NCBI RefSeq assembly: GCF_018977255.1
Contig: NW_024704767.1
Location: 3,782,001-3,846,000, forward strand
From: Callorhinchus milii
Taxonomy: Eukaryota
Reading direction: 5' to 3'
Length of the DNA: 64,000 nucleotides
In this document: positions 871 through 61,092 of the stretch, piece by piece
Layout: each line of letters opens with the position of its first letter
How positions within the stretch are numbered: position 1 is the stretch's first letter
Notes under the pieces: generated by a model
The model's input: only the letters and a program-made list of their open reading frames with translations
Told to the model about the DNA's origin: nothing
Database searches by the model: none
Made by a program: the position numbers and the translations under genes

Positions 871-1026
871 CTTAAGTGCCCATGAATTAAAGGAGGGGAA
901 ATGGAGATGATTTTGCAACCAGAAAACCTACCACAGAAACTGTGCCTTACCGTAAATGGGAGAGATTCTCTTCCTGCTGCTGTGAGTAAGGGGAAGTAGG
1001 ATCCCCAAACTATTTTATTCTCACAG
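871..1026 (+). repeat. ~157-bp direct repeat, copy 1 (copy 2 at 2173-2329)
   Basis: Manual alignment gives about 8 substitutions and 1 indel between the copies. Confidence 0.95.
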
Positions 1027-1340
1027 AGAATGTTATATTTGAATATCCAGCACTCCAGAAAATGAATGTACATTATAACTATGAGGATGACATTTGTAAT
1101 AATATCTTAACTCAATGCAATAATTAACACAAGGATAAAGTTAGAAACTACCTCAAATGTTCCTCCTGTGTATTGTAAAAATGTTCCTCATCATTAATTT
1201 ATTCTAAAAGAGTCTAACCATAAGTGCACAGTGCATTGTAGTGCTGTGTAATCACACCATTTTTATCAAAACCATCTGATAAACAGAGTTTACAAAGCAA
1301 TGAAATCTATGCGATTGTGGAAGAGTATGCATTTTGCAAG

Positions 1341-1510
1341 ATCACAAAAGTGATTCGGATGAAGAAGGCCCTTTGGCCCATTTGATGTTATCCTTCGAGA
1401 TTACCACTCTACCATCTTGTCATCACAGCATAAAGCAGTTTATGGAAAAACATCCAGTGTCCCAGTCTCTACCATGCTTCCTGTTAACTTGTATATTTTG
1501 TGGGTGAAAG
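1341..1510 (-). mobile_element. Degraded CR1 3' end
   Basis: GAAGAAGGCCCTTTGGCCCAT resembles the reverse-complemented CR1 terminal hairpin, followed by CTCTACCATGCTTCCTG...GTGGGTGAAAG (reverse of FT.RV..W..LPG.V). Confidence 0.45.
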
Positions 1511-2172
1511 ACAGCAGTCAATTATATTTCCACAGCAAGCAACAAATGTAAGCAATCACTTATTGGAAGTTCCTGATTACTCCTTTTCAATCAAAGTTTT
1601 GGTTCCAGGATATATAAAAGATCATTCACATTCCCATTGGGAAACTTCCACTACCAATTCCAAAGGCCACACTGGAACTAGTCATTTGGATCCAAGCAAC
1701 AGCAAGTCCAGCTTGGTTCATTTGCTGACTTGCAGGAGGTTCAACGTCAAACTGATACAATATCTAGCAAGTAAAGACAAGACATAGATGAATCCCCTTG
1801 AACAGGAACACAATCCATCCACCACGATCCATAAGTCTCAACTACACAGATCAGTTTGTTACAGTGGAGAGCATAACATAGGAAACTTCTCTTACAGGAG
1901 CCAATAACATATGGCCTTATCACTCTTTAATTCTGCATTGTTTTTAGACATAAAAACTATTGTGATCCAGAAGTATTAAAGGAGAGGGGATACTCATCCT
2001 CATACCTTCTCGCAGGCCAGTCATCCTATGTTCACAAATTTGTCTTGCTTTTGGAGATTCAGTCTCTGGCTATAACAGACACAGAAGATTTATAGTCCCA
2101 GATTTGAGGAAGATTCTGCCATCCAACCACCATCCATTTTATAACTGACAGCTAGTTATTGATTGGAAGAGG

Positions 2173-2329
2173 CTTAAGTGCTCATGAATTAAAGGAGTGG
2201 GAAATGGAGATGATTTTGCAACCAGAAAACCTACCACAGAAACTGTGCCTTACCGTAATTGGGAGAGATTCTCTTCCTGCTGCTGTGAGCGAGGGGAAGA
2301 AGAATCCCTAAACTATTTCATTCTCACAG
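2173..2329 (+). repeat. ~157-bp direct repeat, copy 2 (DIRS YR N-terminus in its expected position)
   Basis: Aligns to 871-1026. Confidence 0.95.
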
Positions 2330-7197: not shown

Positions 7198-10100
7198 CCC
7201 ACGCTTGTGATTAATTAAATCATTATTAAATAACACACAACCACTTTTCTTCAATGTTTCTAGACCTGACAGTTCAAGTCAGCCATGACGGTTTATTGAA
7301 GAAATCAAAATAAGAGGGGAATTTGTGTACATTTGACATCACTTTTATTATCATTCCATTGGTCGGTGACCTTCAAAGTGTTTGAAAGGGTTTTCACAAT
7401 ATCTATTAAATCTTACAATAATCGGATTATACAACTAACAGACATAATTGTAAAATCTTAATTCTTGCTGCATTTGAAGTATTATATAGTGCTATGAAGT
7501 ACTATAAAGTATCAATTCTGTATCAAAAAAATCATGTTGTTTCAGTTCTGCCATTCACAGGAGCTGACTTCATTTCACGTTTTCAGTTTAAATGGTGAAT
7601 TTAGCCTCACATTTTTCCGCTAATCGTGCACACCAACGCTGCATATAATTAGTCTCATGAGATAAGAACCCTAAAAACTATAAAAAAGACTTGTTTTTTT
7701 CCTACTTCATGTGATTGATCTGAAAACTGAGTGAAGTTGGAACTGCCTCTTTATCTGTGTCTGCCTGTGTTGTTTTAAAAGTAAGAACTTTCAGTCAACC
7801 AAAAGCAAGTCTAGCCTTTCTCCTTTTTGATGGCATCTCAATTATTGTACTTTTCTAGCTGCGTTACATCCAGATCCTCCTTTTGTATTATTCTCTTAAA
7901 TGAAGGACGTTCAATGTCTTATTCCAGGTCGATTGTCTGGAAACCTCACACATAGCTTTGTCTTTCCTGTCTCTGCTGATGGCAATAGACCACTTAGCGG
8001 AAAAGAGTGCATTACTGTGTTAAAGGCCATAGATCAGGGGTGACCATATTTCTCATTAAGAGTAGGATCCAAAGTATATACATAGCCAGTCTAAAATCAA
8101 TATTTGTTGTGCTCACGTGATCAGAAGTGGTGAAGAAAATTCTGTAATTGGACTCTTATGTCAAACAACCGATGCCTTAAATAGATCTCTTCTATTTGAC
8201 ATTTGTTTGTTTGATCTTGTACAAGCTGCATTAGAGTTATGTTATTTCATTGCCATTTAATGTCAAAGATAACAGGTCACATGTGAATATTCATATCTGA
8301 GACCAAGGTTACTCGAAGTTCAGGACAGTAGCTATGTAACTGTATTGTTTGCTGCTCCACTGTTGACTGGTACTTATTTTAAAGCGTGTAAACCAAAGCC
8401 TTTGAGCAAATTATCTTTAAGTACTGTCACTGAATTACAAACAGGTTTTGAAATGTGACAATTTATATAAACAAGAAGCAAGGTATGTACATATTACTAA
8501 AATATTAAAGATCTTCGTTTTCTATCCATCAGCCCAATTTTTTTTAGTAATTTATCATGTTACGATCTCTCAAACATACAGTATTTCTTGCCACGAGAAA
8601 TAGCATTAACCGTCTGTCTTTCTATGTAATAGCGAACATATATCAGTCTGAGGTGGTACTAATTAATTTTTAATGTTAATTGTAAGATAATTCCAAAGAT
8701 GCTGTGATTTCCATTGGCATGTGCACCTTTTGAAACATAAATTGAGTCTTCTTATCAAGTCCAATGTTTTTAATGACTTGCTTCAAAGAAAATAGCCACT
8801 GAATGAAAAGTTACCACATGTGATAATTGGCCACAGGCTTTGTTGAAGGGATTATATAAAATATGCACAATTTCATTAAGGTCAGAGTATGCCATTTTCC
8901 ATTAAAACATTCTCAAAAAGATTAAAGAAAATAAACTCAGAAGCTGGCACATCATTAGTTAGAACAAGTCCATTTATATTGAGTGTCTAGGTTAGATGCT
9001 TATTGAAATACCTTTGCATACATTTAATCAATAATTAAACAAATGAACGGATTAACCCTTACCGAAAGGAAATAAAACGCTGTTCCAAACGGTGTGGAAA
9101 AATGTTGAGATGTGGCTCATAAGAGTTAAAACTTGGACGTGACTTCTAGAATGCATTAGTAGGTTTCACTATTGCTGAGATGTTTATACTTAAGTGGTTG
9201 TATTTACATACAGGCTATTTCTGCACCGAGGAGGCAGCATGCTTTCACTCTTAACACCAGACATTTATTTTGTTGCCTTCTCTAAACTGTCACTAACTGC
9301 AGTCCATTTTCTGTCGAGAGGAAAGGAATTTCAGTGAATTTTGATATATTTGAAGCAGAATGATCGTTCACTTTGGTAGGGCTAGACCATGTTTCAATAA
9401 GACAAATGACATCTGAGTGCTAAAATGGCAGCCAATGATAACTCATTGTAAGGAGATCGGAAGAGTAAGGATTGAAAGCACTAGCGCAAGAGTAATTGAA
9501 AAGCATGTGTAAGAAAAACATATTTAGCTCTACACAATTACTTATGATATGAATGGTTTGGGAATTTAACCCTTCACAATATCAAGAATGCTTGTTTGAA
9601 GTATCTTTCTGGCAATTTGGAGTGGAGCATTAGTAATTTTGGTTGGTATATTTTTAAGATTCAATTAAGGTAGGTATTCCCAGGACTGACATTGAAATGC
9701 TGGGATCCACATTGCAGCTATTGCAACTGGTTCACTGATGCCACTGACTTATTCAATGGCTGCAGCTACTGGCAATAGTCAACATTAGTTGAGTTATGAT
9801 GGGTGAGTATGTGTGTGTAGATGGGGGGGGTGGGGGGCAGTGGGGTGTCCCATAGATAGCAGCCATTGATCAGGACATTTTCAGGGATGGAATATCCCAC
9901 AATGTGATAATTAGAACTGGTGATAATTGTCACAGTGCATATTACATTTGAACCCCATTAAGGTTCAAAGCAGTTATCATAAAAATCATATACCAAATTA
10001 AATTTTTATTATTATTATTACTGAAATTTATGGCAGCTGCAGGCCCCCAAATGTTTACCTCTGGATTTTAAAAAAGATTAATTAATAATTGATGTTCAGC

Positions 10101-34255: not shown

Positions 34256-34823
34256 TTAATCATATTTTTCAATGGGACATTCTGCTATTTATCTCCCTGA
34301 CACTTCTAGCATTTGGGAGGCCAGTACAGACCACAGACCATTGAGTAATAAGATTACTCATTACCGTGCTTCATTGCTTCTCCCTGCCTTCTCCATTGAG
34401 TGGCTGTTCAACGGTGGATTTGTGTTCGTTGATCAGAAATAATTTATGCTTTTAAAAAAAAACACAGCTAAGGGAGCAAATGGTGTATAACCTACCTTTA
34501 TATCTAGCACATATGTGTATCGCAACACAGCCATTTTGCGAGTTCATTAAGTGACCTTGGAACACCTGGGTGGTGAAAAAATAAAAATACAACATCATGC
34601 ACAAAGTGACTCACATAAAATGCAAAGCATCACAATCTGCTGGTAGTTTACTGGCGTGAAAATTCTCATATTTGAATCCCGTCCCTACAAAATACAGTCG
34701 TTCATTGTAGGTAGCTTGTTCTAGGGCCAATTATTTCATTTGGTTACCCCATCATCAATAGAAGAATTTTAAATGGAATTGAGAAAGTATACTGAAAACA
34801 ATACTGTTTGATGTATCAAGGGA

Positions 34824-48285: not shown

Positions 48286-48609
48286 ATAATAATAATAATA
48301 ATCCTTGCATTTGATATAGCGCTTTTCACGTCAGGAGGACGTCCCAAAGCGCTTCACAGAACACACTGTAAAGTGAATTGACTGTATATTTGTGGGCGAA
48401 CGCGGCAGCCAATTGCGCACAGCAATGTCCCACAAACAGTCGCAGATTGAAAATGACCAATGTATTATTGTTTTGGGTTTTTGGAGGGATTATTATTAGG
48501 CTCTGTGTGGAGTAAGGAAACTTGCCCAAGGTTTCGCCCTCTGCCTGGAATTGAACTCAGGTCTCTCGCTTGCAAAGCGAGTGCTCTAACCACTGAGCTA
48601 CAGGACTCT
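48286..48609 (-). mobile_element. Near full-length young tRNA-Ala-derived SINE (probably the elephant-shark SINE2-1_CM-like family)
   Basis: A box TAGCTCAGTGG, anticodon arm CTCGC-TTTGCAA-GCGAG, B box GTTCAATTCC, Deu-SINE 3' body, L2-type stem-loop and (ATT)n tail. CpGs are retained. Confidence 0.9.
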
Positions 48610-58270: not shown

Positions 58271-58930
58271 TCATGCCCAAGTGTTCAGTGACAGACTCCA
58301 GTTCTGTAGAGAATTTCTGCATAGAGTGAAAGACTTATTGTACTGTGCACTTCCAAAGAGGCAATATGCTTTATAAATTCATTCAGTTCTCTTCATGCAT
58401 TAAATGCTGGATCCGGTGATTTTTAAAAATTGTGTGGAAGCATTTCTCAATTAAATTGCAATATACAGAGCAACTTGCTTCCGTGTGTTAAGAGTGCTTT
58501 TCTTCAACTCTCCTCCCAGCCACTGAAACTGGCTCATGGCTGGCAATGGGAGAGGGCTTCAAGAAAATATTTGCAACAACCTAAAAAATGTATCCTAAAA
58601 AATACTCTATATTTTGCACTAATATACATGCTTTGTACCCTGGGGATTCTACTCTCAAATTGCAAATCACAACAACTCATGGGTTATTACGTGCAGTCAC
58701 AAATAAAATGGCAATTTCTTCATCGTTGCTCGCATAGCATTTTGGGTGTCTTTTATTCCCAAGATATTTTGCTACACGTTTACATGTTATGTATTTTAAA
58801 GTACTTTTAAGAACAGAAGTTTATTACCATAAACTTTGCACCTATTATCCATATGAATTGGTATGCATTTCCTAACTGATCTGTTACAATTTTCATGTTG
58901 TAATAGAACAAATTCATTTGAGCTACAGTG

Positions 58931-58983
58931 AGAACAACAACAAATTGCATTTATGTAGCACCTTTCACATTGGGAGGACGTCC
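58931..58983 (-). mobile_element. L2 3' tail
   Basis: (AAC)nATTGCATTTATGTAGCACCTTTCACATTGGGAGGACGTCC. Confidence 0.75.
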
Positions 58984-59208
58984 AGTATTTGTTTGCTGCT
59001 TTGCGGTGCTGGGAGACAGATCTTCCTGTGGAACTGGAGTTCAAGTTAATAGCCTTAAGAAACATACCTCAAGCATATACCAATGTATTCTTTGCGCTCT
59101 TGTTAACTGTGACTTCACACAGTCCAAACCACAAAATAGTCAGCAAGGGATGTTTTTAATTGATGGGTGTGGTTTGCAGGATGTCATAAGGCCACCTCCA
59201 CTCTCAAA

Positions 59209-59717
59209 TTGATCCTAGCAAGTCTCTAAAGGTTGGCACGGAGGAACGGAAAAGAAACTCTTAAATTCAGCAAATGCCGATAATGAGCTATCATTACTCA
59301 AATTACTCAGAACACTGATTAGGTTTTAAGTAATGAAGAGGCCAACATGATCAATCATAATCTAGCCTTAGCTTGTCAATATACATTGAAAGGTTAGGCG
59401 GTGCATACATGTCTAAGCAACGTCAGCAAAAATAAATCTTTCTGTCTGTTTGCAGGGGCACTGTGAAGCTCTGTATACTCCAGGATTGATCCTATAAGGT
59501 CCCTAAAGGTTGACTAGTAGGAGAGCATAAAAAAAACTCTTAAACTTGGCAAATGCCGATAATGAGCTTTCATTACTTAAATTGCTCTGAACACTGATTA
59601 GGTTTTATCAGGCGAAGACGGCGACATGATCAATCATAATGCAGCCTCAGGTTGTCGATGTACATCCAAAGGTTAGCCAATTCTAACAGCCTCTGCCAGT
59701 GTCAGCAAAAATTAGTC
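59209..59717. repeat. Diverged tandem duplication: two ~230-bp copies (59209-59438, 59486-59717), period 279
   Basis: Core 74 bp match at 67/74, and 184 bp align without indels. Confidence 0.95.
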
Positions 59718-61092
59718 ATACTGATCATAAGTTGGCATTCGTCCCCCCGAGAAAATTAGTGAACGATTGAAATACTAGGTCTAAGAAACGTTACTTCAAT
59801 TTTTAAAAAATCAGCTGATCACATAGGTGCAAGGACCACAACTTTGTGCCTTGAAAATAATAAATTCAGGATGCTTGTTATATGCCAACAAGCATGTCAG
59901 TTCTCCAGCGAATGGGTCGTCTGAAAATAAAGCAACGAGATGCGAGCCAAAATGATTCCAGAGTTTGTAATTGCTTATTCCGCTACGTCTGATTTTTTAA
60001 AAAAATAACCTTTCCTCTTTGTAAACGGATAACCATTTAAATTAAAATTGGATTGTTTTATGCCCCTCTTGTCCTTGAGCGATGAAAATGTAAACTTTCT
60101 TCTCATTTAAAAGCTGCAGATTCAATCTTCTTTTTGTCCACTGCCCATTTGAATAAGTCGACAGAGCCATAGCACTCTCCGGTTTTATTGTTTGACTTGA
60201 CAGTAATAATACTCGAGCTGAAATTGTACATGCATTCACTAATTTAGTGATTATTTACATGGCAGCAGGCCGAAATGTTAGCAAACAGATGCTCCCATAA
60301 AAGAGAAATGGAATAAAGGCATTCACTGCATTGTTGAATATTATTTTATACCTTTTTTGTGTCATAAGTGGGCCATTGCACCCTTCCATTTCCCTGCACA
60401 TTTATAATTCATGCTCTGTAATAGCTCCAAATATTTTTTTGGGCGAAACTCAATGTTTGCCAGTTCGAGCTGACAAAACGCTGAGCACGAAATGCACACA
60501 TGGTGAGGTGACAGGGAGCTGACCCCAGGCTTCTATGCAGCAGCAGTGACACACTTTTCTGTTATTCTTGTACAATACAAATTCATATCTGTGCAAAAAT
60601 CCTGTAAACCTGCTTTCTTGACTGTGGATTTAGCAAGCAATACAACTCTTATAATAATTTCATTGCTAGGATTAATTAAAACACCCAGCTGCACAGGTCC
60701 CCCCCAACCATTACTTTTTGACAGTCGCACTGTCCCACTTGCTGCCTCGACCGGCTCTGGGGATCTCCAGTCTTCTCATGCACGTTTAACAGTACTCACA
60801 GCTAAACTGCAAATAAATAATTTTTATGCCCAGGAAGTCAAATGAATGCATTTTCCCCGTGATGAAATAATAAAGTGCGACAATAAATAGAATTTCAAAT
60901 AATACTCCTAAATAATAAAAGACGCAGGTGTTCATCAGCTGTTAACCACTTCTGCCATGACTTCTGTTTCCCCTCCTCAACCATTTTTGTGTCTATTTGT
61001 TATTTGGCTGTTCTGGACTGAAAGCCTTCAAATCAATTCTCATCAGGGTCTGTATTTTTTAAGCTGCTGTATCTTACAGAATATGTCCTATC

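What the first reader, a model, noticed from the sequence alone, without database searches (positions are those of the whole stretch)
59209..59717. Ancient indel-free tandem duplicate with motif-shaped conservation: candidate twin enhancer
Seen: two copies at period 279. 184 bp align with no indel, but conservation is patchy. Invariant or near-invariant blocks include GCAAATGCCGATAATGAGCT-TCATTACT, GAACACTGATTAGGTTTTA, ACATGATCAATCATAAT, AAAGGTTAG and GTCAGCAAAAAT, separated by heavily substituted spacers of identical length. Known motifs: ATCAATCA is the reverse of the PBX-type TGATTGAT, ATTTTTGCTGAC is an AT-flanked Maf half-site, and TAATGA..TCATTA is an inverted homeodomain pair. Inference: both copies are under selection for motif content and spacing, as a duplicated cis-regulatory module or possibly a structured ncRNA. 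Neutral decay to this spacer divergence would normally add indels.
Basis: partly seen in the sequence, partly recalled or inferred. Interest (0 to 1): 0.7.

Follow-up and report, generated by a model that had tools for sequence, protein, structure and literature searches.

The report
Tandem twin of an NR2F2 enhancer
In the elephant shark, a short non-coding DNA element that humans and zebrafish also carry near the developmental gene NR2F2 sits head-to-tail with an old second copy, and both copies are preserved in distant relatives (likely sharks or rays), so the pair is likely a duplicated gene switch, although its activity is untested.

Summary
The duplicate is real: 184 bp align without gaps at period 279 (143/184 identical), and the genome search finds only these two copies. 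It lies in the gene desert 286 kb 3' of NR2F2 and 109 kb beyond MCTP2 of Callorhinchus milii. Copy 1 is the orthologue of a catalogued human-fugu-zebrafish conserved element, CONDOR CRCNE00008495 (95/117 identical to human, ungapped, by eye), whose human sequence carries a PBX-HOX motif. All five other-species runs laid hold both copies. Three of them, likely sharks or rays, are 89-91% identical, and in the two laid with flanks the next 450 bp fail to align. So both copies are under long-term selection. No support was found for an exon, structured RNA or transposon. Copy 2 was not found in the human-fugu catalogue; whether it is shark-lineage-specific is open. Enhancer activity and target gene are inferred, not shown. 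Verdict: a known conserved element with a tandem twin that my searches did not find described.

The parts
59208..59444 (+). Copy 1 of the tandem unit (weak homology extends upstream to about 59173)
   Evidence: BLAST 239 columns, 75.7% to copy 2; offsets
59485..59723 (+). Copy 2 of the tandem unit (weak homology extends upstream to about 59449)
59248..59364 (+). Part of copy 1 orthologous to CONDOR element CRCNE00008495 (human, fugu, zebrafish)
   Evidence: 95 of 117 identical to the human record, ungapped; 69 of 79 to the zebrafish record over 59280-59358; compared by eye
59099..59728 (.). Whole block (both copies) conserved on single contigs of distant relatives
   Evidence: X18 59099-59728, 73 substitutions and 17 gap letters; X20 59150-59728, 66 and 12
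59281..59296 (.). Inverted TAATGA..TCATTA pair, homeodomain-type (label recalled); copy 2 at 59560-59575
   Evidence: both half-sites kept in human and zebrafish records
59329..59336 (+). Copy-1-specific third TAATGA site; replaced by TCAGGCGA in copy 2 (59608-59615)
   Evidence: identical in human and zebrafish; no difference listed in X18-X20
59348..59357 (.). TGATNNAT PBX-HOX consensus on both strands; copy 2 at 59627-59636
   Evidence: the human element is listed among TGATNNATKR hits (files 4 and 5)
59422..59433 (-). AT-flanked TGCTGAC, Maf half-site-like (label recalled); copy 2 at 59701-59712; a third TGCTGAC at 59139-59145
   Evidence: conservation outside this genome not shown

Best explanation
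This is a head-to-tail tandem duplicate of an ancient vertebrate conserved non-coding element in the gene desert 3' of NR2F2; both copies are conserved across distant species and likely act as long-range enhancer modules, most likely for NR2F2. Shown: duplication, conservation of both copies, orthology of copy 1 to CRCNE00008495, position between NR2F2 and MCTP2. Inferred: the unit was copied once by local slippage or unequal exchange before the chimaera line split from the larger-genome relatives (about 410-420 Myr if these are sharks and rays; date recalled); most differences between the copies were fixed before that split and then kept; PBX-HOX and other homeodomain factors would bind the TGATNNAT and TAATGA sites and drive neural or pharyngeal NR2F2 expression (about 0.4 for that tissue call); copy 2, lacking the third TAATGA site, would have a partly different output.
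For: Both copies on single collinear contigs in 5 of 5 other-species runs laid (X6 in three overlapping contigs, X10, X18, X19, X20). Identity 88.9% (X18), 91.4% over the aligned pieces (X19), 88.6% (X20), while 59729-60181 does not align at 80% in X18 or X19 although about 445 letters lie there. In X6, 11 of 447 substitutions in the element against 52 of 601 in three upstream flank pieces, Fisher p=2e-5. Copy 1 matches CRCNE00008495; motifs from neighbouring records 8494 and 8500 are found in the same order and strand (motifs from 8499 and 8496 were not found). Flanking genes: NR2F2 (96% to Narcine COUP-TF2) and MCTP2 (100% to C. milii MCTP2). The desert shares a collinear chain of duplicated conserved elements with the NR2F1 region. 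NR2F2 elements are enriched for PBX-HOX motifs and two tested ones drive hindbrain or pharyngeal-arch expression in zebrafish (PMC3261376; PMC4489388).
Against: No activity, chromatin or contact data for this element. The strict hindbrain syntax is not met in this genome: no TGATNNATKR and no CTGTCA in either copy, and PBX-HOX motifs alone predicted hindbrain activity in only 7 of 29 tests (PMC4489388). Motif-shaped constraint is modest: post-split changes are only weakly drawn to old differences (p=0.06-0.42), and relatives delete most of the GCAAAT part of the longest 'invariant' block in copy 1. MCTP2 is nearer than NR2F2. The relatives' names are coded, so their identity and the age are inferred from run size and divergence. 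One search showed 40 of 87 difference rows, so per-site counts are incomplete.
Confidence: 0.8

Rival explanations
1. Same duplicated regulatory element, but it serves MCTP2 or acts as a silencer or structural element rather than an NR2F2 enhancer.
For: MCTP2 coding ends 109 kb away, NR2F2 286 kb. Paralogous conserved elements are reported for MCTP1/MCTP2 too (PMC3595034).
Against: It lies 3' of both genes in a desert whose duplicated elements track NR2F1/NR2F2; NR2F2 is the developmental regulator of the block (PMC7530604).
Confidence: 0.09
2. The copies are exons or domains of a conserved non-coding or structured RNA.
For: Each copy is preceded by TTTGCAG and contains AAAG/GTTAG, which resemble splice sites; run X20 is guessed to be RNA and covers the element.
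Against: Folding z-scores -0.98, -0.25, -1.25, +0.15 and no structure shared by the copies. No Rfam match at the element. The X20 contig is 3379 nt, unspliced and nearly the same extent as the DNA contig of X18, so it looks genomic.
Confidence: 0.05
3. The copies are a pair of mutually exclusive coding exons or a remnant of the lost FAM172A/KIAA0825-like bystander gene.
For: Period 279 is a multiple of 3; short open frames exist on both strands; a FAM172A 3'UTR remnant is reported downstream of human NR2F2 (PMC7530604).
Against: Mismatches by position mod 3 are 15/15/11 and all six frames hold stops within the unit. A 1-nt insertion at 59625 in X18 and X19 breaks the best plus-strand frame. 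No Pfam match; no tblastx or nhmmer match in 600 kb of the NR2F1 region; no host gene found across the desert.
Confidence: 0.02
4. The duplicate is neutral and decaying, or is a transposon repeat.
For: Near-by local duplicates are common in this region. Absence of indels alone is weak: probability 0.002-0.24 under assumed indel ratios.
Against: Cross-species conservation of both copies. Two matches in the genome and single-copy contig depth over the element against hundreds to hundreds of thousands on the repeat at 58925-58990. Dfam could not be searched, so an ancient exapted origin is not excluded.
Confidence: 0.02

Closest known systems
CONDOR conserved non-coding element CRCNE00008495 (Parker et al. 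2011, PMC3261376, additional files 7, 9, 12, 13)
   Same: Copy 1 is its orthologue: 95/117 to human, ungapped; at 19 columns where the copies differ, human matches copy 1 at 13, copy 2 at 2, neither at 4 (by eye).
   Different: The catalogue lists a single 117-nt element. No copy-2-like record among records 8494-8619 read, and four copy-2 or Maf-block words gave no related hit in file 7. Not found in the VISTA, cneBrowser, lamprey or tested sets of that paper by word search.
Duplicated conserved non-coding elements (dCNEs) from vertebrate genome duplications (described in PMC2781166, PMC3595034, PMC7530604)
   Same: Two old copies, about 76% identical, both conserved; the same identity range as the NR2F1/NR2F2 pairs found here (64-83%).
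   Different: The copies are adjacent, head-to-tail, beside one gene; no copy was found at NR2F1.
PBX-HOX plus MEIS/PREP hindbrain enhancers, e.g. nr2f2.8394 (Grice et al. 2015, PMC4489388)
   Same: Same locus, conserved TGATNNAT.
   Different: No CTGTCA in either copy; copy 1 has TTGTCA at 59373-59378, copy 2 TTGTCG; the KR extension is absent in C. milii but present in human and, through 59349 G>A, in X18-X20.

Membership tests
Vertebrate conserved non-coding element (CONDOR type) | Conserved between human and fish | tested here: met
   Copy 1 only: human and zebrafish records of CRCNE00008495. Copy 2 not found in that set.
Vertebrate conserved non-coding element (CONDOR type) | Non-coding, single-copy, not a known RNA family | tested here: met
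   two local copies only.
Vertebrate conserved non-coding element (CONDOR type) | Clustered around a developmental regulator | tested here: met
   NR2F2 desert.
Genome-duplication dCNE | Copies lie beside paralogous genes at different loci | tested here: not met
   Copies are adjacent; nhmmer best E=1 and no BLAST hit in 600 kb 3' of NR2F1.
Genome-duplication dCNE | Both copies deeply conserved | tested here: met
   (within the coded relatives).
PBX-HOX/MEIS hindbrain enhancer | Conserved TGATNNAT motif | tested here: met
   Both copies, both strands; human and zebrafish.
PBX-HOX/MEIS hindbrain enhancer | Conserved CTGTCA within 100 bp | tested here: not met
   None in 59100-59760; CTGCCA at 59693 is changed in X18-X20.
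PBX-HOX/MEIS hindbrain enhancer | Drives reporter expression in hindbrain | not testable with these tools
   No assay found for this element.
Structured non-coding RNA | Stable shared fold | tested here: not met
   Covariation was not tested: relatives' sequences were available only as difference tables.
Ancient repeat (UCON, Eulor, MER) | Match to a Dfam family or dispersed copies | tested here: inconclusive
   No dispersed copies (two other short-pattern hits, not followed up); Dfam is not available.

The most novel reading that the evidence does not exclude
Copy 2 is a cartilaginous-fish invention: a pan-vertebrate NR2F2 enhancer was duplicated in place on the shark-and-chimaera stem, the new copy quickly rewrote part of its motif set (up to 13 of 15 polarised differences fall on it, including loss of a homeodomain site) and was then frozen for some 400 million years, giving sharks, rays and chimaeras an NR2F2 expression domain that bony vertebrates lack.
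Probability: 0.3. Interest if true: 0.6.

Novelty: new variant of a known kind. Interest (0 to 1): 0.38.

Why it matters
Most described duplicated conserved elements come from whole-genome duplication and sit by different genes. An in-place pair beside one gene, with a single-type orthologue known in human and zebrafish, is a compact natural experiment: about 20 fixed differences in 120 bp can be swapped one by one in a reporter assay to see how an enhancer copy diverges and why both are kept. It also adds a testable element to the regulatory desert of NR2F2. A conserved element next to NR2F2 is by itself expected.

Tried and rejected
Coding exon readings on both strands: rejected. snoRNA or other Rfam family: only a tRNA-like hit at 48541-48603. 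RNA folds: not significant. Paralogue at NR2F1: none in 600 kb. Further copies just up- or downstream: scores within the null. Pfam Arb2-like PF09757 in the genome: no match and the control was silent, so uninformative; a FAM172A exon was later found directly. Two exact-pattern scans of metagenome contigs: 0 hits. No RNA holder was listed and nothing was laid from RNA run X21: no evidence either way. Full-text search for six element words: 0 papers. Literature searches for a described tandem CNE duplicate or an enhancer at this place: none found in the listings. McEwen et al. 2006 (PMC1457030) is not held and may discuss cis-duplicated elements. Four .doc supplements of PMC3261376 could not be read. 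GATC insertions in X6 (59348, 59487) are taken as ligation artefacts. Earlier findings near this place, by sequence and by words: none.

Full report
Observation. At offset 279, window 59250-59433 matches 59529-59712 without a gap at 143 of 184 positions. BLAST extends the pair to 59208-59444 and 59485-59723 (239 columns, 75.7%, 2 gap columns, E 2e-46). Upstream the offset changes to 277 and 276, so the unit is about 280 bp, head-to-tail, and not indel-free as a whole. The genome search with copy 1 returns 2 matches, the two copies. Mismatches cluster: runs test p=2e-4 on the 184 bp, p=0.015-0.036 for runs and window variance on two trimmed cores, with the long-run statistic at p=0.17 and 0.03. 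Lack of indels alone has probability 0.002-0.24 under assumed indel-to-substitution ratios of 0.05-0.125, so it is not strong evidence by itself.

Setting. The window is C26:3782001-3846000 of a 991-Mb genome. No host exon was found among 116 open frames chosen from 2008 in the 264 kb around it (one reverse-transcriptase hit). Wider fetches found a nuclear receptor at C26:3551177-3554725 (+), 96% identical to Narcine COUP transcription factor 2 and 74-75% to C. milii NR2F1 records, and a gene 100% identical to C. milii MCTP2 at 4056877-3950829 (-). The element is therefore intergenic, 286 kb 3' of NR2F2 and 109 kb 3' of MCTP2, in the elephant shark. Mctp2 is a reported neighbour of Nr2f2 (PMC8608329, passages). 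The desert shares a collinear chain of duplicated elements with the NR2F1/FAM172A region on C1, but neither BLAST, nhmmer with a two-copy profile (best E=1) nor tblastx finds the element in 600 kb there. PMC7530604 (passages and supplement passages) describes this desert as holding a FAM172A remnant.

Conservation in relatives. The run index listed 20 holders in 11 studies; I laid 5 of the other-species holders and one same-species RNA run. X10 covers 58956-60700 on one contig (84 substitutions). X6 has 11 substitutions in 447 bp of the element against 52 in 601 bp of three upstream flank pieces (p=2e-5); its downstream piece, which includes a second conserved element, has 48 in 1004 and was left out of that test. 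X18, X19 and X20 carry both copies in order on one contig each, at 88.9%, 91.4% (aligned pieces only; 59399-59476 falls below 80%) and 88.6%. In X18 and X19 the next 450 bp are present but do not align at 80%; X20 also stops at 59728. Names are coded; that B and D are other chimaeras and F, G, H sharks or rays is my inference from run sizes (about 1 Gb against 2.0-3.6 Gb; H is a small run that shares derived changes with F) and divergence. Both copies are thus older than that split and under selection.

Bony vertebrates. Word searches in the supplements of PMC3261376 found record CRCNE00008495 in the human file (6693 human-fugu elements) and the zebrafish file. By eye it aligns without gaps to 59248-59364 at 95 of 117 positions; zebrafish matches 69 of 79 over 59280-59358. 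At the 19 columns in 59254-59363 where the copies differ, human agrees with copy 1 at 13, copy 2 at 2, neither at 4 (sign test p=0.007, or p=0.11 if the 6-nt block is one event). Motifs of neighbouring records 8494 and 8500 flank it in the same order; 2 of 4 neighbour motifs tried were found. No copy-2-like record was seen. That is weak evidence of absence, since the set needs conservation in fugu and teleosts lose many such elements (PMC11034925, search listing only). So either copy 2 arose on the cartilaginous-fish stem and diverged fast, or it is older and was lost or diverged in bony fish.

What the pattern of change says. One search shows 40 of 87 difference rows (24 of 29 places for X19). 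In those rows copy 1 has no difference over 59279-59342 in any of the three runs, and 15 of the 20 columns that separate the copies in 59250-59369 are unchanged in X18 (copy 1) and X19 (copy 2). The most visible 'spacer', AGTAAT at 59329-59334, is identical in human and zebrafish and forms a third TAATGA; copy 2 has TCAGGC there. The differences are thus mostly old and copy-specific, not ongoing decay. Against strict spacing: X18 and X20 lack 6 bases at 59269-59276 (X19 has 6 gap letters in the same piece), all three lack one base at 59529, and X18 and X19 have one extra base at 59625. Post-split changes in the two copies fall near each other more than chance (p=0.02-0.07) but are only weakly drawn to old differences (p=0.06-0.42); motif-shaped constraint is plausible but modest.

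Motifs. TGATNNAT occurs on both strands of both copies; the stricter TGATNNATKR and the MEIS word CTGTCA do not occur. The human element is listed among the KR hits, and 59349 G>A gives KR in X18-X20. In shuffles the AT-flanked TGCTGAC appears with probability 0.005, TGATTGAT 0.02, the inverted TAATGA pair in 0 of 3000, but these motifs were picked after seeing the sequence; the Maf and homeodomain labels are recalled. NR2F2 elements are enriched for KR motifs (PMC3261376, passages), and nr2f2.8394 drives hindbrain expression (PMC4489388, passages and supplement rows); in that paper the PBX-HOX motif alone gave hindbrain activity in 7 of 29 tests. This element was not found among the VISTA, cneBrowser, lamprey or tested sequences supplied with PMC3261376 or in the tested list of PMC4489388.

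Rivals. Coding: no codon bias (15/15/11), stops in all frames, a frame-breaking insertion in relatives, no Pfam match. RNA: z between -1.25 and +0.15, no shared fold, no Rfam match, and the one guessed-RNA contig is unspliced and genome-like. Transposon: single-copy depth over the element; Dfam untested. Neutral: excluded by conservation.

Mechanism and verdict. Most likely (0.8) a local duplication of an ancestral NR2F2 long-range enhancer whose two copies diverged early and were then both kept; binding by PBX-HOX and other homeodomain factors, the target gene and the tissue are inferred. Copy 1 is a member of the vertebrate CNE class and already catalogued. The pair works like a duplicated CNE but is not a genome-duplication dCNE as described in PMC2781166 (passages) and PMC3595034 (passages). 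Nine literature searches listed no description of this tandem pair; McEwen 2006 could not be read. Earlier notes on this genome describe other old local duplicates (unchecked), so such pairs may not be rare. Interest 0.38; novelty: new variant of a known kind.

Noticed in passing
window 60182-60563: A second conserved element 450 bp downstream: X18 38 substitutions over 382 bp, X19 28 over 331 bp. Two words from it were not found in the human CONDOR file.
   Followed up: partly
window 34394-34413: Motif of CONDOR record CRCNE00008494 with 2 mismatches; a motif of record 8500 lies at L008 2575-2594.
   Followed up: partly
L061 4054-4329, L019 4515-4730, L053 3628-3725, L060 8807-8895: Collinear duplicated conserved elements shared with the NR2F1/FAM172A region on C1 (276 bp 73%, 216 bp 65%, 99 bp 81%, 89 bp 76%); the two longest have stops in all frames.
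   Followed up: partly
G000 C26 3551177-4056877: NR2F2 and MCTP2 face each other tail-to-tail, as NR2F1 and its MCTP neighbour do on C1. From recall, human MCTP2 lies 5' of NR2F2, which would imply an inversion of NR2F2 with its deserts in one lineage.
   Followed up: no
L038 7985-8257 and L040 5958-6212: An ELL-family first exon and an FKBP-like exon lie just beyond the MCTP2 5' end; which paralogues they are was not tested.
   Followed up: no
L013 3333-3521 (-): 63-aa open frame that resembles a Myb/SANT-like domain by recall; no Pfam match.
   Followed up: partly
window 58925-58990 and 48541-48603: A high-copy repeat fragment shared with all four runs, and a tRNA-like, probably SINE-derived Rfam hit.
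   Followed up: no
L022 2424-3227, L025 2244-2543, L062 7559-8084, window 871-2329: Other close local duplicates in the region (94%, 99%, 75%, 94%); some may be repeat copies.
   Followed up: no
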